Assembly: GCA_021775855.1 (NCBI GenBank) | Contig: JAJFGZ010000059.1 | Span: forward strand, 1,321 to 65,320 | Direction of reading: 5' to 3' | Length of the DNA stretch: 64,000 nt | DNA from: Hyphomicrobiales bacterium | Lineage (GTDB): Bacteria; Pseudomonadota; Alphaproteobacteria; Rhizobiales; NORP267 | In this document: in pieces, positions 24,283 to 59,003 of the stretch | How the letters are laid out: the number at the start of each line of letters is the position of its first letter | How positions within the stretch are numbered: the stretch's first letter is position 1 | Translations under genes and position numbers: made by a program | The notes under the pieces: generated by a model | What the model was told of the DNA's origin: nothing | The model's database searches: none | Seen by the model: the letters and a program-made list of their open reading frames with translations, nothing else

Positions 24283-24794
24283 GAACCAGCATACCTCCGC
24301 TTGTTAAAAATCTCGGCTGGAGCAAATCCCTGCCGTGCGACAAAGTCTGGCTGGTACGTAAGCGACATGGCGGTTGCCGTGCGTTGCCAAATATCCAGGG
24401 GTTGGTAGTCCGAGCGGATTTCAAAGGCGTCGAACCCGACCTGACGCATGAAAGCGACCTGATCGGCGAGCACATCGCCGGTTGCGCGGAGTTCCCCGGT
24501 AAAACCCAATTGTGTGCGGATGACGCGGGCAAGCGAATAGGCGCGCCCGTCGGTATAGGCCGCAAATTCCAGTGCGATGACTTGAAGGCCGCTGACAAAC
24601 GGCGTCAAGGTAGCAGGATCGGAATCTACCGGAAAACGCACGCCCAACCGCCCGGTGTCTGCAGCGAGCAGGGCGTAATCCTGCCGCAACCGATCCCAGG
24701 ATACAATCACCGACGCGCCTTCAGGAAAGGACGCCCCGTCTTCCAGATCGAGGAAGGAATCGTCCTCGATTATTCCGCCTTTAAGCAGTGGCAT
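24279..24794 (-). CDS. DUF934 family protein
   Basis: ALEFAAYTDGRAYSLAR, GELRATGDVLADQ, GFDAF; follows sulfite reductase. Confidence 0.88.
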   Translation of the reverse strand: MPLLKGGIIEDDSFLDLEDGASFPEGASVIVSWDRLRQDYALLAADTGRLGVRFPVDSDPATLTPFVSGLQVIALEFAAYTDGRAYSLARVIRTQLGFTGELRATGDVLADQVAFMRQVGFDAFEIRSDYQPLDIWQRTATAMSLTYQPDFVARQGFAPAEIFNKRRYAGS

Positions 24795-53994: not shown

Positions 53995-55065
53995 CTATCC
54001 GGATTTTACAACTTCGCTCATCAAGTCCTTGATAGCCGGTGCGGGGAGGTGGCGAAAGGGCATAGGACGGCAAACTTCCAGCGCCGCCATGCCAATCCGT
54101 GATGTGAACAGGCCATTGAGGACACCTTCACCCAGGCGAGCCGATAATTTGGCCGCGACGCTGTGACCGAATACTTGCTGCAAAAGGTTGTCGCCGAGCG
54201 CTATCCCACCCGTCAGAGTGAGGTGGGTCAGGACCATCCGGGCAAGTTTCAGCATGCCGAGGGTACCGGGCCGTCCGCCATAGAGAACCGCGAGCTTGCG
54301 CATTAAGGACAGGTTGGCGACCAGCACGAAGCCGATATCGATCAGGGCAGCCGGGCTGACGGCGGTGACGATGGAGACGCGTTTCGCAGCGCGCGCGATT
54401 TCGGCACGCGCCTGCAAATCCAGGTCTTTCATAAGGATCTGCTCCGCGACCTTCATAAGGTCGTCTGCGTCAAATATATCGGGTTCTGCATCCGCCAAGC
54501 GGGCCAATTGCCATTTACAGTCGTCGCGGCCGCGATAGAGGGCTTTTAACTTAACCAGCACGTCGCGGGCGGCGCGCTCATTCTTGCTGCGTTCGGCCCG
54601 CGCGACCTCATCGCGGATGCGGCCAAGTTTTCGCAAACGGGCAAGCGACGTAATCTCCCGGGTCACAATCGCAATCAGCGCCAGTGCTGCGAGCGATGCC
54701 AGACCGAGAGCCAGCCAGCCCAACCAATCGGCGCGGGAAAACAGGTTTTCCACCAACGAGGCCGCGGCAAGTCCCGCAGCCATGGTGACCAGCGCTCCAA
54801 TGCTCGAGAGCAATATCCCGCCCCATCGGCTGAACCCGCTTGTGAACCGCGCGGTTGCGCCGGGGGTGGACGTTGAAGGGGCGACAGCATTGGTGCCATC
54901 CGTGGTTTCTTCGTTTCCTTTGGTTTTCTTACGGCGCGTCTTATTTGCCGGCTCGGGCTCAACCGCGATCTCCAGATCCAAGTCCAGTGGCGTCGCCTCG
55001 GCAACGCGCAAGGCGGGATCATCGAGATCGAAGCTGGCCGGTTTTCTGCTGGTGCTGCAGGTCAT
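53995..55065 (-). CDS. ycjF: YcjF family membrane protein (TIGR01620)
   Basis: AKRVSIVTAVSP.ALID, LYGGRPG.LG, KLSARLGEGVLNG, CRPMPF. Confidence 0.9.
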   Translation of the reverse strand: MTCSTSRKPASFDLDDPALRVAEATPLDLDLEIAVEPEPANKTRRKKTKGNEETTDGTNAVAPSTSTPGATARFTSGFSRWGGILLSSIGALVTMAAGLAAASLVENLFSRADWLGWLALGLASLAALALIAIVTREITSLARLRKLGRIRDEVARAERSKNERAARDVLVKLKALYRGRDDCKWQLARLADAEPDIFDADDLMKVAEQILMKDLDLQARAEIARAAKRVSIVTAVSPAALIDIGFVLVANLSLMRKLAVLYGGRPGTLGMLKLARMVLTHLTLTGGIALGDNLLQQVFGHSVAAKLSARLGEGVLNGLFTSRIGMAALEVCRPMPFRHLPAPAIKDLMSEVVKSG

Positions 55066-55077
55066 GAAAATTGCTCG

Positions 55078-56535
55078 CTATTGAAGCCGGTCGCCGATGA
55101 GAAAATTGATCGCCCGATCGAGCCGGATATGCGGAAGGATGGCCCTCCCGCCTGGCCCCTTGTTGGGTTTTGGCGGCCGGAAGCGCACGAACCGGACAGG
55201 GTTCTGTCCGGCCTTTGGTGTTGCAGCATCAAACAGGCTTTCTGGATCGTCTGGCAGGTCGCCGGGAAAAATCGCAGTATCCTTCTTACCGTCAAACGCA
55301 CTGCGGCCGATTTTTTCCCCGTCCACCGGGGTGCCGGTCACCAGCCCGAGGTCCATGCCTTCTTGGTGGACGCTCGCCTCGCGTGTTGCGCGGATCCCCG
55401 AGAGCGCAATTGCATCCACGTGCGCGCCGGCGAGTTCGGCGCGTTCCATGGCCTGTTCGGTCAGGCGCATGGCGACGGCTTCAAGTTGGTCATGGTTGTC
55501 ATGGTGCAGGTGATCGGCCTTCGTGGCGGCAATGAGGATGCGCTCGACCCGGTGCGCGAGGATAGAGGACAACCAGTTATTTGCTCCGGTCCGGAAGCAT
55601 TTCAGGATATCGGCCAGCGCCGTTTCCAGGTCCTGCACGGCGTCGGTCCCGGCGTTCAGAGCCGCTAGGGCGTCGACCAGAATGATTTGCCGATCGAGGC
55701 GGGCAAAATGATCACGGAAAAACGGTTTGACGACGACGGATTTATAACTTTCGAAGCGCCGTTCCATCATCCCGGCAAGGGACTCGCGGGGATAGATTGT
55801 CCCCGCTACCAGACTTAACGGTGAAAATGTGAGGGCAGGGGACCCCTCCAGATCACCCGGCATCAGAAATCGCCCTGGCGGCAAGGCGCTAAGAGAGAGG
55901 CGTTCGTTGCGGCAACTCTGCAGATAGGCGGTGAATTGTTCCGCGTGATCCCGGGCGAGGGGCTCGTCGGCCTTGGCCGCGGGGTCGGCCTTTTTCAATA
56001 TTCTGTGCCACGATTTTGCCACCTGGGATCGGGGTGATTTGCGGCTCGCTTCGATCGTCTGCGCTGACCATTCGGCGTAGGTCAAATTGAGCAGCGGCAG
56101 ATCCAGCAGCCATTCGCCGGGGTAATCGACAATGTCAAGGTTGAGTTTGCCACCCCGGACGTTGCGGTCCCAGAAACCGGTCGGCTCAAATTCGATTGTA
56201 AGTCGCAATTGGCTGATGCGCCGGGTGCTTTCGGGCCAGACACGCCGTTTCAGAATGTCCGTGATATGACGCTCATAGTCGAAGCGGGGCACGTCGTCAT
56301 CGGGCTGGGGCCTGAGGTAAGCGCGTTTGAACCGGCCTTCGGTGACCACGTCAAAAAGCGGTAGTTTCCCGCCGGACACAAGGTTGTGGATCAATGAGGT
56401 AATGAAAACCGTTTTGCCCGCGCCCGACAGGCCGGTGACACCAAGCCGGATGGTCGGCTCAAAGGTTTCGCTGGCATAGGTCGCCAATCCCTCGACGGCG
56501 AAGCGAGTTTCGTCCCAGATGTCAGACAATTTCAC
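55078..56535 (-). CDS. ycjX: YcjX family P-loop GTPase/ATPase
   Basis: GLSGAGKT, DYPGEWLLDLPL, ATKADH, PHIRLDRA. Confidence 0.93.
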   Translation of the reverse strand: MKLSDIWDETRFAVEGLATYASETFEPTIRLGVTGLSGAGKTVFITSLIHNLVSGGKLPLFDVVTEGRFKRAYLRPQPDDDVPRFDYERHITDILKRRVWPESTRRISQLRLTIEFEPTGFWDRNVRGGKLNLDIVDYPGEWLLDLPLLNLTYAEWSAQTIEASRKSPRSQVAKSWHRILKKADPAAKADEPLARDHAEQFTAYLQSCRNERLSLSALPPGRFLMPGDLEGSPALTFSPLSLVAGTIYPRESLAGMMERRFESYKSVVVKPFFRDHFARLDRQIILVDALAALNAGTDAVQDLETALADILKCFRTGANNWLSSILAHRVERILIAATKADHLHHDNHDQLEAVAMRLTEQAMERAELAGAHVDAIALSGIRATREASVHQEGMDLGLVTGTPVDGEKIGRSAFDGKKDTAIFPGDLPDDPESLFDAATPKAGQNPVRFVRFRPPKPNKGPGGRAILPHIRLDRAINFLIGDRLQ

Positions 56536-56604
56536 GCAACAGGTCTCCTGCCTCCCAGTTAGGGAGCCTGGAGAAATATGCAAGTTGTGGGGGTGGCTGT
56601 AAAC

Positions 56605-56634
56605 GAAAAGAGCCCGGAGCGCGAAGCCCCGGGC
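56605..56634 (-). terminator. Rho-independent terminator of peptide module 1
   Basis: Minus strand GCCCGGGGC-TTCGC-GCTCCGGGC followed by TCTTTTC. Confidence 0.75.
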
Positions 56635-56652
56635 CGTCAGTTTACTGAACCA

Positions 56653-56829
56653 TTAAAGATTGTTTGTCAGTTGGGCGATTGGCAGCCGGCCATCAATCGA
56701 TCCACCTGTCAGGGAGTTGACGAGCAGGTCGTTGGTGCCGGGAGACACCCGCCCCAATTCAGTGCTGGCAAAGGCTGCCGGCACAGAGAGTGCCAGCAGC
56801 GTTACCGTTGTGAGAAGGAGGTTTCTCAT
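56653..56829 (-). CDS. Small secreted peptide, type B copy 1 (58 aa)
   Basis: MRNLLLTTVTLLALSVPAAFA/STELGRVSPGTNDLLVNSLTGGSIDGRLPIAQLTNNL; paralog at 57544-57720. Confidence 0.75.
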   Translation of the reverse strand: MRNLLLTTVTLLALSVPAAFASTELGRVSPGTNDLLVNSLTGGSIDGRLPIAQLTNNL

Positions 56830-56871
56830 TTTTATCACCCGATTATTAGAGGGTTTTGTGGTTCGACAGAC

Positions 56872-57048
56872 CTAGAAGTTGTGGCCGTCGTTGGTCAGGA
56901 ATGCATCACCAGCGGCAGGAACCGTTGACGTCATCTGATCAGTGATACCAAGGTCTTCGTTGACCTGATATCCGGTTTCGGCCTGTGCCGTGACGATGCC
57001 AGTTCCAAGTGCTGCGATAGCGGCGACTGCCATAAGGGTCTTTTTCAT
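56872..57048 (-). CDS. Small secreted peptide, type A copy 1 (58 aa; absent from ORF track)
   Basis: MKKTLMAVAAIAALGTGIVTAQA/ETGYQVNEDLGITDQMTSTVPAAGDAFLTNDGHNF; AAGGAG RBS; paralog at 57761-57940. Confidence 0.85.
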   Translation of the reverse strand: MKKTLMAVAAIAALGTGIVTAQAETGYQVNEDLGITDQMTSTVPAAGDAFLTNDGHNF

Positions 57049-57320
57049 TTTAAATTCTCCTTATGCCTCTGTTTGGCGAGGCGTTTTAAAAATTCGCGTC
57101 CGGTTGGTTCGCGTCTGGGTTAGAGATAGGGAAACGGAAATCAGAAAAAAGTACCTGTACTGATCATGTGAAACGACGTGAAAAATGCGTGATTTGGCGC
57201 GATGAATTGCGAGTTTCAGAGCACAAAAAAAGTGATCAATTGACGGTTTGTCGTGGGTTTCCGCCGACCCGCTGGTAACGCAGGATCACTTTATTCGTGA
57301 TCACACCGTGTAGGCGATTT
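57049..57320 (-). promoter_or_regulatory. Conserved upstream control region of peptide module 1
   Basis: Homologous to 57941-58215; G(T/C)GA boxes at 57168, 57178, 57189, 57199, 57209, 57232; ATCAC-N7-GTGAT at 57285. Confidence 0.7.
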
Positions 57321-57490
57321 GGAAGGCGACCAGCGCAGCCGGAAAACGGCAGGATTTCTGATATCAGAAATGCGTGAGATCGGTTTTCAAGATCCATGCT
57401 CGCGAATTTGTTCCAGAAAATTCGCGGCATTTGATGTCGACCCGAGATCCCAGCAGGGTCCGACAAGATGTACAAATGTTTTGGGAGCCT

Positions 57491-57528
57491 AAATAAGGAA
57501 AGGGCCCGGGATATAAATCCCGGACCCT
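57491..57528 (-). terminator. Rho-independent terminator of peptide module 2
   Basis: Minus strand AGGGTCCGGGAT-TTAT-ATCCCGGGCCCT followed by TTCCTTATTT. Confidence 0.7.
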
Positions 57529-57543
57529 AGGTACGACGCTCTT

Positions 57544-57720
57544 CTAGAGAGTGTGCGTCAACCGGAGAATTAGCGGACAACCTGCGATCGGGGCGCCAGT
57601 CTGGGAGTTGACTAGGACGCGGTTAGTGATCGGGGTTGCCTGCCCTGTTTCGGTTCCGGCGAATGCTGCTGGCGCGGAGAGCGCCAGCAGGGTTACCAGA
57701 GTGAGGACTAGACTTTTCAT
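57544..57720 (-). CDS. Small secreted peptide, type B copy 2 (58 aa; absent from ORF track)
   Basis: MKSLVLTLVTLLALSAPAAFA/GTETGQATPITNRVLVNSQTGAPIAGCPLILRLTHTL; GGAGG RBS. Confidence 0.75.
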   Translation of the reverse strand: MKSLVLTLVTLLALSAPAAFAGTETGQATPITNRVLVNSQTGAPIAGCPLILRLTHTL

Positions 57721-57760
57721 AATATGTCCTCCGCTGTTTGGGTTGTTCCTGGTGAACGAC

Positions 57761-57940
57761 CTAGTAGTTGTGGCCGTCGTTGGTCAGGAGGTTGTCGGGG
57801 TTGCCAGCGGAAGCAGTGGTTTCCAGCTGGGTCTTGAATGCAACGCTTTCGTTGGCGTTGTAACCGGTCTCGGCTTGTGCCGCGATGATGCCGGTGCCAA
57901 GAGCTGCAATAGCGGCGATTGCTGTGAGGGTCTTTTTCAT
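57761..57940 (-). CDS. Small secreted peptide, type A copy 2 (59 aa)
   Basis: MKKTLTAIAAIAALGTGIIAAQA/ETGYNANESVAFKTQLETTASAGNPDNLLTNDGHNY; AAGGAG RBS. Confidence 0.85.
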   Translation of the reverse strand: MKKTLTAIAAIAALGTGIIAAQAETGYNANESVAFKTQLETTASAGNPDNLLTNDGHNY

Positions 57941-58215
57941 TTTCTTCTCTCCTTTTGCGCCTCGGAAGGGTGAGGCGATCTCCAAATTTCGCGTCCGGTT
58001 GGTCCGCGTCTGGGTTAGAGATAGTCGGGAGAAACAAGGAAAAAAGAGGCTATCCTGTGCATGTGAGACAGTGTGAAAACGACGTGATCGGGCGCGATGA
58101 AAAGCGAGTTTCAGGGCCCTGAAAAAGTGATCATTGGACGGATTGAAGAGCTATTCCGCCGGTTTTCCACTCACTGGGGAATCACAATTTGCGTGATGAC
58201 GCGCTGTTGGCGATC
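57941..58215 (-). promoter_or_regulatory. Conserved upstream control region of peptide module 2
   Basis: G(T/C)GA boxes at 58063, 58073, 58084, 58094, 58104, 58127; ATCAC-N7-GTGAT at 58181. Confidence 0.7.
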
Positions 58216-58225
58216 AGGTTCGCAA

Positions 58226-58993
58226 TCAGGAAAGCGCGGAAAAGTCCGGGTTTCTTTTTTCAATAAACGCCGAGAATGCTTCGCGCGCCTCTGGTGACGT
58301 GAGCTGCTGGCCAAATATTCTGGCCTCTTCGGCTATAATAGCGTCCATCCTGGCTTGTTCGCCCTTCAACATGCGTTTAGCCATACGCACGGCTTTGGGC
58401 GGCTTTGCGGTGAATTTGTCCGCAACCGTTTTGGCTTCCTCGTGGATTTTGCCGGATTTGACGGTTTTGCTGGCGATACCCAGTTCGACAGCGCGGGCGC
58501 CGGAAAATTCCTCTGCCAGCAAGGTCAGCTCGGCTGCCCGCGTATAGCCCAGAAGACGCGGCAGGAGGCGCGTCGAACCGGCTTCCGGTAACAGGGCGAG
58601 ATTGATGAACGGGAATTGCAGGCGCGCATCCTCGGTGACCAGGACATAATCGCAATGCAGCAGCATAGTCGTGCCGACCCCTACGGAGACCCCTTCGATT
58701 GCTGCGACGATGGGAACTGTCGCGCGGGCAATCGCGGAAATAAACTGGAGCGCAGGGGCTGATTCATCGATGGGCGGTTTTGATAGGAAGTCGTTGACAT
58801 CGTTGCCCGAGGTATAATTCCCGCCGGCACCGTGAAACAGGACCACGCGCACATCCAGGTCCTTTTCGGCGGCCGCCAGCGCCTCCGTCATGGCAGAGTA
58901 CATTTTCAGGGTCAGGGCGTTTTTCTTATCCGGACGGTTGAACCGGATATCCAGAATATGCCCGTCGCGGGTGATGATCACATCGTCTGACAT
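58226..58993 (-). CDS. Enoyl-CoA hydratase/isomerase (crotonase) family
   Basis: NRPDKKNALT, YTSGNDV, GVGTTMLLHCD, PEAGS. Confidence 0.92.
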   Translation of the reverse strand: MSDDVIITRDGHILDIRFNRPDKKNALTLKMYSAMTEALAAAEKDLDVRVVLFHGAGGNYTSGNDVNDFLSKPPIDESAPALQFISAIARATVPIVAAIEGVSVGVGTTMLLHCDYVLVTEDARLQFPFINLALLPEAGSTRLLPRLLGYTRAAELTLLAEEFSGARAVELGIASKTVKSGKIHEEAKTVADKFTAKPPKAVRMAKRMLKGEQARMDAIIAEEARIFGQQLTSPEAREAFSAFIEKRNPDFSALS

Positions 58994-59003
58994 GTTGCAT
59001 CCT

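What the first reader, a model, noticed from the sequence alone, without database searches (positions are those of the whole stretch)
56605..58215. Tandemly duplicated two-peptide secretion module: candidate undescribed signalling or effector system
Seen: two ~0.89 kb direct copies on the minus strand, each built as [~270 bp conserved upstream region] - peptide A (58/59 aa) - ~40 bp - peptide B (58 aa) - own terminator. All four ORFs have Sec signal peptides ending AxA, and two are below the ORF-track cutoff. The copies have diverged in sequence but keep length, frame, signal peptide and layout, which points to purifying selection. Terminators separate the module from ycjXF, and no modifying enzyme, transporter or receptor is adjacent. 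Inference: a co-expressed pair of ~35-37 aa exported peptides, such as paired signals, a two-component antimicrobial, a subunit plus nucleator of a surface fibre, or a stress-induced periplasmic pair.
Basis: partly seen in the sequence, partly recalled or inferred. Interest (0 to 1): 0.85.

Follow-up and report, generated by a model that had tools for sequence, protein, structure and literature searches.

The report
Duplicated operon for two small exported peptides
Two tandem copies of a small two-gene operon encode four roughly 58-residue exported peptides found only in one genus of Rhizobiales-like bacteria; the genes look real and selected, but nothing yet shows they form a new kind of system.

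Summary
On the minus strand, two cassettes about 890 nt apart each carry a ~285-nt conserved upstream region, peptide A (59/58 aa), a ~40-nt spacer, peptide B (58 aa) and an intrinsic terminator. They lie between an enoyl-CoA hydratase gene and ycjXF.

- **Coding:** dN/dS is 0.1-0.4, changes are most frequent at third codon positions, ribosome-binding sites are present, and all four ORFs have Sec-type signal peptides (AQA|ETG, AFA|G/S).
- **Relationship:** A and B are not detectably homologous to each other.
- **Known families:** neither matches Pfam, NCBIfam, PHROGs, PADLOC or PDB beyond the signal peptide.
- **Distribution:** 22 A-like proteins among 5.8 billion, and 4 B-like representatives among 1.84 billion. 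Full-length copies occur only in the 3 genomes of one genus, always just upstream of ycjX.
- **Copy number varies:** A-B twice here, A-B once, and A-A-B. A solo B paralogue also exists.
- **Regulation:** every cassette has CTTT-N17-(C/A)CTATCT, an RpoH-like promoter with an RpoH2-type -10. A 17-bp palindrome and three phased TCAC repeats lie further upstream. ycjX has its own CTTG-N17 RpoH-like promoter.

Best reading: separately regulated, probably stress-conditional, small envelope peptides. Function is inferred only; no RNA data, fold or A-B complex support was obtained. Interest is modest.

The parts
57941..58225 (-). Copy 1 regulatory region. This is the whole intergenic stretch between the enoyl-CoA hydratase stop codon and A1. 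It contains the palindrome ATCAC-N7-GTGAT (58181-58197), three phased TCAC repeats (58063-58087), an RpoH-like promoter with CTTT at 58046-58043 and ACTATCT at 58025-58019, and a 41-nt block 95% identical between the copies (57984-58024).
   Evidence: It is 70% identical to copy 2, against 48-52% for the other non-coding segments.
57761..57940 (-). A1: a 59-aa preprotein with signal peptide MKKTL...AQA. The mature peptide of 36 aa is acidic and ends in ...LTNDGHNY.
57544..57720 (-). B1: a 58-aa preprotein with a signal peptide ending ...AFA. The mature peptide of 37 aa carries the motif VLVNSQTGAPI.GCP and ends in Leu.
57491..57528 (-). Intrinsic terminator of copy 1: a 12-bp stem with 8 G-C pairs, followed by a T-run.
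57331..57490 (-). Non-duplicated spacer between the two copies. A related organism has unrelated sequence here.
57049..57330 (-). Copy 2 regulatory region. It contains the palindrome (57285-57301), the TCAC repeats (57168-57192), CTTT at 57151-57148, CCTATCT at 57130-57124, and the conserved 41-nt block (57089-57129).
56872..57048 (-). A2: a 58-aa preprotein. The mature peptide ends in ...FLTNDGHNF.
56653..56829 (-). B2: a 58-aa preprotein. The first ATG lies at 56829; the ORF listing entry starts earlier, at a GTG at 56838.
56601..56635 (-). Intrinsic terminator of copy 2.
56557..56584 (-). The RpoH-like promoter of ycjX itself, CTTGCAT-N14-CCTAACT (that is, CTTG-N17-CCTAACT), downstream of the last terminator. 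The same arrangement is found in 3 of 3 genomes of the genus.
53995..56535 (-). ycjX (DUF463; probable GTG start at 56535) and ycjF (DUF697). These are the conserved downstream neighbours and are not shown to be part of the module.

Best explanation
Each cassette is an independent bicistronic operon. A regulated promoter drives one mRNA with a leader of about 70 nt, encoding two unrelated preproteins of about 58 aa, and an intrinsic terminator ends it.

Both products enter the Sec pathway and are cut by signal peptidase I after AQA (A) or AFA (B). This releases peptides of 35-37 aa into the periplasm, and possibly beyond. Mature A is acidic, polar and probably disordered, with a conserved N-terminus (ETG[YF]) and a conserved C-terminus ([ND]GH[NS] followed by an aromatic residue). 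Mature B is near neutral, with a conserved core (L-V-N-S-Q-T-G-A-P) and a C-terminal Leu.

The promoter has an RpoH2-type -10 (CCTATCT), set 17 nt after a weak -35 (CTTT). Further upstream lie a 17-bp palindrome and three TCAC repeats spaced 10-11 nt apart. I therefore infer expression that is conditional on stress or stationary phase and needs an unidentified DNA-binding activator. I also infer that the peptides act in the cell envelope alongside the neighbouring heat-shock-type ycjXF unit.

The tandem copy arose by duplication before the sampled relatives diverged, since A1-type and A2-type orthologue pairs appear to recur on other contigs.

Shown: gene reality, export-type N-termini, unit boundaries, a narrow distribution, and selection on both the coding and the upstream sequence. 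Inferred: cleavage, the sigma factor, the inducing condition and the envelope role.
For: **Coding**
- dN/dS is 0.34 (A1/A2), 0.28 (B1/B2) and 0.10-0.40 between species.
- Differences by codon position are 15/12/23 for A and 13/17/31 for B.
- AGGAG-type ribosome-binding sites are present.

**Export**
- MKKTL, AQA and ETG are invariant in 20 of 20 A sequences.
- A19 and A21 (the A-x-A) are invariant in all 8 B sequences.

**Unit boundaries**
- Each B is followed by a terminator; the same hairpin sequence aligns after B in G004 and G005.
- ycjX has its own CTTG-N17-CC(C/T)A..T site in 3 of 3 genomes.

**Regulation**
- CTTT-N17-(A/C)CTATCT lies 98-106 nt before the ATG in 4 of 4 first-A upstream regions.
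- CTT[GT]-N17-CCTATNT occurs only 8 times on both strands of the 3.14-Mb genome.
- In the same genome, dnaK has CTTG-N17-CCTATAT and groES has CTTGAC...CTTATCT.
- The S. meliloti RpoH2 motif is quoted as CTTGCC-N15-16-CCTATCT in PMC4843759 (passage seen).
- Two rpoH paralogues score above the family cut-off.
- The upstream region is 70% identical between copies, against 48-52% for the other non-coding segments and dS of about 0.8-1.1.
- The palindrome and the triple TCAC repeat are present in 3 of 3 complete upstream regions.

**Context**
- The module sits directly upstream of ycjX in 3 of 3 genomes of the genus.
- E. coli ycjX is reported to have a sigma-32 promoter (PMC3041696, passage seen).
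Against: - No expression data: no run listed for this stretch is on record as RNA.
- The -35 is CTTT, not CTTG, so dependence on RpoH is not established. The promoter could instead be a sigma-70 or other type.
- The upstream motifs occur nowhere else in the genome, so no regulon could be drawn.
- Signal-peptide cleavage was judged by eye only.
- The signal region of A is far more conserved than Sec export requires. It could therefore have a sequence-specific role, for example as an uncleaved membrane anchor.
- The link to ycjXF may be mere ancestry. ycjXF is widespread without A-B: none was found in 13 other ycjX loci from relatives. G005 has a second B copy away from ycjX.
- AlphaFold models are of low confidence (mature parts pLDDT 46-57), so structure gives no help.
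Confidence: 0.5

Rival explanations
1. The peptides are secreted and act between cells, either as a paired signal or as a two-component antimicrobial. Recurrent duplication would tune dose or specificity.
For: - The family is small, exported, lineage-restricted and repeatedly duplicated: A-B twice here, near-identical A-A in G005, an extra B copy in G005, and a solo B3 here.
- The ends of A are conserved and its middle is variable.
- The source is a biofilm metagenome.
Against: - No transporter, immunity gene, receptor kinase or modifying enzyme lies nearby.
- The leaders are Sec-type, not double-glycine.
- Mature A is acidic and lacks the amphipathic, cationic or GxxxG character of pore-forming peptides (read from the sequence).
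- Sec export alone leaves a peptide in the periplasm of a diderm cell.
- There is no sign of diversifying selection: dN/dS for the mature parts is 0.07-0.36.
Confidence: 0.13
2. The N-terminal hydrophobic segment is not cleaved. A, and perhaps B, would then be a single-pass small membrane protein that modulates a membrane partner such as YcjF (DUF697) or a sensor kinase, in the manner of known small membrane regulators.
For: - The signal region of A is unusually invariant: 16 invariant positions within residues 1-26 across 20 sequences.
- Its dS is lower than in the mature part, 0.47 against 1.15 for A1/A2.
- The module is always next to ycjXF in the genus.
Against: - A canonical A-x-A site followed by an acidic or small residue is invariant in both families.
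- The G-x-G and proline-rich c-regions are typical of cleaved signals.
- ycjXF exists widely without A-B.
- The low dS in the 5' part can also reflect constraints on translation initiation or gene conversion.
Confidence: 0.1
3. The mature peptides are ligands for periplasmic PDZ-domain proteases or chaperones. Their conserved free C-termini (aromatic for A, Leu for B) would mimic the tails of unassembled envelope proteins and so tune an envelope-quality-control response during stress.
For: - In otherwise variable short peptides, the best-conserved mature positions are the last 6-8 residues and the terminal residue class.
- The promoter is RpoH-like.
- That PDZ domains recognise C-terminal aromatic or hydrophobic tails is recalled general knowledge, not tested here.
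Against: No partner was identified and no structural or complex support was obtained. The idea rests on motif resemblance alone. A few family members end in L or R instead of F or Y (P0010, P0016, P0026).
Confidence: 0.07
4. The ORFs have no function of their own: they are young orphan genes, or chance ORFs over a regulatory or RNA element.
For: - The distribution is restricted to one genus.
- No fold is predicted.
- G+C dips over the module to 0.475-0.525, against 0.56-0.61 in the flanks.
Against: - dN/dS is well below 1 in every comparison that has enough changes to judge.
- Frame and length (58-59 aa) are kept across paralogues with saturated synonymous sites.
- Ribosome-binding sites are present.
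- Neither Rfam nor alignment folding supports an RNA element.
Confidence: 0.05

Closest known systems
Tandem small envelope stress peptides, for example the E. coli entericidin pair ecnA/ecnB (recalled from memory; not retrieved here)
   Same: Adjacent genes for exported peptides under 60 aa, conditionally expressed and acting in the envelope.
   Different: Entericidins are lipoproteins with a lipobox Cys and are paralogues of each other. A and B have no lipobox, use signal-peptidase-I-type sites, and are not homologous to each other.
Class IIb two-peptide bacteriocins
   Same: Two small peptides encoded side by side in one operon and exported.
   Different: Those peptides have double-glycine leaders, a dedicated ABC exporter, an immunity gene, and cationic amphiphilic sequences. 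None of these is present here (and the sequence itself). The host here is a diderm.
DUF680 (PF05079), small signal-peptide proteins of Pseudomonadota
   Same: About 65 aa with an N-terminal signal. This was the nearest language-model neighbour of A (score 0.84, a lead only).
   Different: There is no HMM match at E <= 10, either for the peptides or for the six-frame genome. The function of DUF680 is itself unknown.
RpoH (sigma-32) regulon units, including ycjXF
   Same: The -10 sequence CCTATCT is identical to the quoted RpoH2 motif, and its spacing is compatible with it (CTTTT[TC]-N15 against N15-16). The adjacent ycjX has a CTTG-N17 site, and E. coli ycjX is reported as sigma-32 dependent.
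   Different: The -35 is CTTT rather than CTTG. Extra upstream operator-like repeats imply another regulator. No transcription data are available.

Membership tests
Sec / signal peptidase I substrates | Positively charged n-region, a hydrophobic h-region of 10-15 residues, and small residues at -3 and -1 (A-x-A) | tested here: met
   Judged by inspection of the alignments. A reads MKKTL...AALGTGII.AQA|ETG in 20 of 20 sequences. B reads M[KRN]...LLAL..P.A.A| in 8 of 8 sequences. No predictor such as SignalP was available.
Bacterial lipoproteins (entericidin-like) | Lipobox L-[AS]-[GA]-C with Cys at +1 | tested here: not met
   None of the four sequences has a Cys at or near the cleavage site.
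Class IIb two-peptide bacteriocins | Double-glycine leader processed by a C39-peptidase ABC exporter encoded nearby | tested here: not met
   The leaders end in AQA or AFA. The neighbours are ECH, a SixA-like gene, a MetA-like gene, DUF463, DUF697 and VWA_CoxE.
Class IIb two-peptide bacteriocins | Adjacent immunity gene; cationic amphiphilic mature peptides | tested here: not met
   There are no further small genes in the cassette. Mature A1 and A2 carry excess D/E, as read from the sequence.
RiPP precursors | Modifying enzyme genes in the same cluster; a leader without a Sec signal | tested here: not met
   No enzyme gene lies within the unit. The N-termini are Sec-type.
DUF680 (PF05079) | Match to the family HMM above its cut-off of 24 bits | tested here: not met
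   The family does not appear among the hits for any of the four peptides at E <= 10. The six-frame genome has no match at E <= 10.
AimP lysogeny pheromone (NF033802) | HMM score of at least 35 bits, next to aimR in a phage | tested here: not met
   Scores are 15.6-17 bits and cover residues 1-23 only, the signal region. PHROGs hits are likewise confined to the signal region.
RpoH-dependent promoters (alphaproteobacterial type) | -35 CTTG(AA/CC), a spacer of 15-16 nt after the hexamer, and -10 CCTAT(A/C)T | tested here: inconclusive
   The -10 and the spacing are met in 4 of 4 (one copy has ACTATCT). The -35 is CTTT in 4 of 4. The reference motif is quoted in PMC4843759. No transcription-start data exist.
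Known cis-regulatory RNAs (Rfam, including ROSE thermometers) | Covariance-model match at the gathering score | tested here: not met
   The best hit scores 16.6 bits against a gathering score of 45. Alignment folding gives no covariation support.

The most novel reading that the evidence does not exclude
A and B are a genus-specific, stress-induced pair of periplasmic peptides that act through their conserved free ends. They would work either as decoy C-terminal ligands for a PDZ protease or chaperone, or as periplasmic partners of the membrane protein YcjF. Either way they would give the poorly understood YcjXF GTPase system an extracytoplasmic input. Under this reading, recurrent duplication sets the dose.
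Probability: 0.08. Interest if true: 0.7.

Novelty: new member of a known kind. Interest (0 to 1): 0.3.

Why it matters
If the peptides are made, they are a clean example of a lineage-specific small-protein operon that standard gene calling often misses, since all four ORFs are under 60 aa. The operon has its own elaborate, selected regulatory region and lies next to the conserved but poorly understood stress pair ycjXF.

It could give a handle on RpoH2-type regulation and on small envelope proteins in uncultured Rhizobiales from biofilms. As it stands, it is an undescribed orphan family of unknown function, which is common in bacterial genomes. It is not evidence for a new class of system.

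Tried and rejected
- **A-B complex:** a prediction on the mature parts, using alignments, scored 0.00 against a mark of 0.32, which is no verdict.
- **Structure:** AlphaFold2 gave mean pLDDT of 64.7 for A and 54.7 for B, and 46-57 for the mature parts. No fold search was therefore run.
- **RNA evidence:** no run listed for this stretch is on record as RNA.
- **Metagenome and genome collection scans:** both the A profile and a degenerate DNA pattern found nothing.
- **DUF680 lead from the ESM Atlas:** rejected. The Atlas gave nothing for B.
- **Weak order-level hits:**
  - For A, 16 genomes matched apart from the genus; their matches cover only query positions within 1-41.
  - The two genus-g12 proteins I read (156-173 aa) share just the signal region.
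  - For B, 28 genomes matched. Most hits cover the signal region only, and two (G022, G060) extend to positions 55-56 at E of 1e-3 to 4e-3. None was inspected.
  - I treat all of these as not family members.
- **Regulon search:** looking for the palindrome, the TCAC repeats, the 41-nt block, and an nhmmer profile of the upstream region found only this locus.
- **Structured 5' leader or RNA thermometer:** no support.
- **Homology between A and B:** hhalign probability 2%, confined to the signal region.
- **Small signal-peptide ORFs upstream of ycjX in other genera:** a crude filter flagged 1 ORF in L016 and 2 in L022. All are Arg-rich and unlike A or B, and tblastn gave nothing better than E = 0.045.
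- **Literature:** three peptide motifs matched 0 papers.
Full report
**Observation**

Reading the minus strand of 56000-59000, the ORF list and the repeat finder confirm the described layout. Four direct-repeat families are spaced 889-895 nt apart and are 75-97% identical.

| Part | Copy 1 | Copy 2 |
|---|---|---|
| Upstream region | 57941-58225 (285 nt, the whole intergenic region after an enoyl-CoA hydratase gene) | 57049-57330 |
| Peptide A | A1 57761-57940 (59 aa) | A2 56872-57048 (58 aa) |
| A-B spacer | 40 nt | 42 nt |
| Peptide B | B1 57544-57720 (58 aa) | B2 56653-56829 (58 aa) |
| Terminator | 57528-57501 (12-bp G+C-rich hairpin plus T-run) | 56635-56611 |

About 160 nt (57331-57490) between the copies is not duplicated.

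Identity between the copies by segment is 70% upstream, 72% for A, 66% for B, 48% for the A-B spacer and 52% after B.

The arrangement is not an assembly artefact. Single contigs in two runs span the whole stretch. In a run from a second study, a roughly 90%-alike relative has the same order: hydratase, A-B, spacer, A-B, ycjX. There the inter-copy spacer is replaced by 220 unrelated letters.

**Are the ORFs genes?**

- dN/dS (Nei-Gojobori) is 0.34 for A1/A2 and 0.28 for B1/B2. It is 0.10-0.40 for comparisons with the two other species of the genus. dS is 0.8-1.4, so silent sites are near saturation while length and frame are kept.
- Differences fall mostly at third codon positions: 15/12/23 for A and 13/17/31 for B.
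- AGGAG-like ribosome-binding sites precede A1, A2 and B1. B2 has GGGTGA.
- All four N-termini have the classical Sec and signal-peptidase-I layout. MKKTL, AQA and ETG are invariant in 20 of 20 A sequences. The A-x-A of B is kept in 8 of 8 sequences. This was judged by eye, because no predictor was available.
- A and B are not detectably homologous: hhalign probability is 2%, confined to the signal region.

**Known families**

None matches.

- Pfam and NCBIfam give only sub-threshold hits. All but two cover the signal region alone: a SepZ hit on A2 residues 5-50 (20.6 bits against a cut-off of 27.3) and a WGxxGxxG hit on A1 residues 1-47 (14.8 against 35).
- PHROGs gives signal-region hits only, and PADLOC gives nothing.
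- PDB sequence profiles match only other proteins' signal peptides.
- Rfam finds nothing near a gathering score.
- The ESM Atlas suggested DUF680 for A at 0.84, a lead only. The DUF680 HMM finds nothing in the peptides or in the six-frame genome at E <= 10.
- Three peptide motifs occur in 0 papers of the library.

**Distribution**

The A family has 20 proteins at E <= 0.01 among 25 candidates. With a profile it has 22 at E <= 0.1 among the 8000 candidates scored, drawn from 5.8 billion sequences. B gave 5 hits. An exhaustive profile search of 1.84 billion representatives gave only 4 at E <= 0.001, one of them marginal.

Six-frame searches gave:

| Scope | Query | Genomes with a match | Full-length copies |
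|---|---|---|---|
| Family | A | 3 of 6 genomes, 1 of 4 genera | the one genus only |
| Order | A | 19 of 401 at E <= 0.01 | G000, G004, G005 only |
| Order | B | 31 of 401 | the same three genomes |
| Class | A | 1 of 401 at E <= 1e-4, the window's own genome | - |

In the order-level A search, the other 16 genomes match only positions within 1-41. Two of them that I read are unrelated 156-173-aa proteins.

In the order-level B search, most of the other 28 genomes match the signal region only. Two hits reach positions 55-56 at E of 1e-3 to 4e-3, and none of the 28 was inspected.

Named genomes with the nearest YcjX (50-56% identity) are Rhizobiales/Hyphomicrobiales: Salaquimonas, Hyphomicrobiaceae MAGs, Xanthobacter and Beijerinckia. 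The DNA occurs in biofilm metagenome runs.

**Context and copy number**

In all 3 genomes of the genus the module sits directly upstream of ycjX (DUF463) and ycjF (DUF697), on the same strand. The number of copies differs:

- A-B twice in this genome.
- A-B once in G004.
- A-A-B at a contig edge in G005. The two A genes differ at 3 of 177 nt.
- A second, identical B fragment at the start of another G005 contig, followed by unrelated genes.
- A solo B paralogue in this genome on another contig (G000:C74:37851-38027). It is also 58 aa, with the same GGGTGA ribosome-binding site. It lies between a divergent TetR gene and DUF1348/PNPOx genes.

So A and B usually, but not strictly, occur together, and their ratio is not fixed.

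ycjX loci in 13 other relatives carry no A- or B-like ORF. No transporter, modifying enzyme, kinase or immunity-like gene lies nearby.

**Regulation**

The upstream region is as conserved as the coding sequence, whereas other non-coding parts are near random. It holds no conserved ORF (and my reading) and gets no RNA-structure support.

Conserved features:

- CTTT-N17-(A/C)CTATCT lies 98-106 nt before the ATG in 4 of 4 first-A upstream regions.
- A 17-bp palindrome, [A/T]TCAC-N7-GTGAT, lies at -246 to -257 in 3 of 3 complete upstream regions.
- Three TCAC repeats spaced 11 and 10 nt apart lie at about -140 in 3 of 3.
- A 41-nt block after the -10 is 95% identical between the copies.

The -10 equals the S. 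meliloti RpoH2 motif, CTTGCC-N15-16-CCTATCT. RpoH1 is CTTGAA-N15-16-CCTATAT. Both are quoted in PMC4843759 from Barnett et al. 2012; I saw the passage but did not read the original.

In this genome, dnaK has CTTG-N17-CCTATAT, groES has CTTGAC...CTTATCT followed by an inverted repeat that I recognise from memory as CIRCE-like, and one hsp20 gene has CTTGAAA...CCTACAT. CTT[GT]-N17-CCTATNT occurs only 8 times in the genome. Two rpoH paralogues pass the family cut-off.

ycjX has its own CTTG-N17-CC(C/T)A..T site after the last terminator in 3 of 3 genomes. This fits the sigma-32 promoter reported for E. coli ycjX (PMC3041696, passages seen). YcjX is described as a Ras-like GTP-binding stress protein in a title I saw only in a reference list.

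The -35 of the A promoters is CTTT rather than CTTG. Together with the upstream repeats, this suggests a weak RpoH-type promoter helped by an activator. That is inference.

**Mechanism**

Most likely, each cassette is a separately regulated bicistronic unit that delivers two unrelated peptides of 35-37 aa to the periplasm under a stress or stationary-phase condition.

- Mature A is acidic and polar. It has conserved ends and a variable middle.
- Mature B has a conserved core and a C-terminal Leu.

What the peptides do there is not shown. The rivals are a secreted signal or antimicrobial, uncleaved small membrane regulators, PDZ-ligand decoys, and functionless orphans. They are weighed in their own sections.

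Three tools gave no help:

- Structure prediction gave low confidence.
- The A-B complex job gave no verdict.
- No RNA run was available.

**Verdict**

This is a real and previously undescribed family of small exported peptides, but one of very narrow distribution. It has an interesting conserved regulatory region and a probable stress link. Nothing shows a new type of system, so interest is modest (0.3).

Supplementary files of the cited papers were not consulted.

Noticed in passing
G000:C74:37851-38027 (+) = L050:1852-2028 (outside the window): A solo third B-like gene of 58 aa, MKIVL...AWA|ATSS...DRNLVNSPTGAP...QIL. It matched the B profile at E = 2.3e-10 and has the same GGGTGA ribosome-binding site as B2. 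It lies between a divergent TetR-family gene and DUF1348 plus PNPOx genes. A 13-nt direct repeat (ACCGATCAGTACA, twice) lies just upstream and may be a TetR operator.
   Followed up: partly
L049:3-143 (G005:C10 start) and L003:130-543 (G005:C23): The sister species has two nearly identical A genes in tandem (3 differences in 177 nt). It also has a second identical B fragment at the start of another contig, followed by a 342-aa protein and a 318-aa protein that I did not scan against any family library, not by ycjX. The module has been duplicated or moved recently there, and the assembly breaks at the repeats.
   Followed up: partly
window 56557-56584 (-): ycjX carries its own CTTG-N17-CCTAACT heat-shock-type promoter-like site, conserved in 3 of 3 genomes of the genus. 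Its probable start codon is the GTG at 56535, not the TTG at 56583 that the ORF list gives.
   Followed up: yes
window 57265-57498: In a related organism from another study (run X5), the spacer between the two cassettes is replaced by 220 unrelated letters while both cassettes are kept. The spacer therefore evolves freely, or is a hotspot for replacement.
   Followed up: no
window 56800-57400 and 57800-58400: G+C dips to 0.475-0.525 over the cassettes, against 0.56-0.61 in the flanking genes.
   Followed up: no
G000:C77, about 24600-24735 (outside the window): The groES upstream region combines an RpoH-like CTTGAC...CTTATCT site with an inverted repeat, TTAGCACTC-N9-GAGTGCTAA. I recognise the latter from memory as CIRCE-like. 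This suggests dual heat-shock control in this organism.
   Followed up: no
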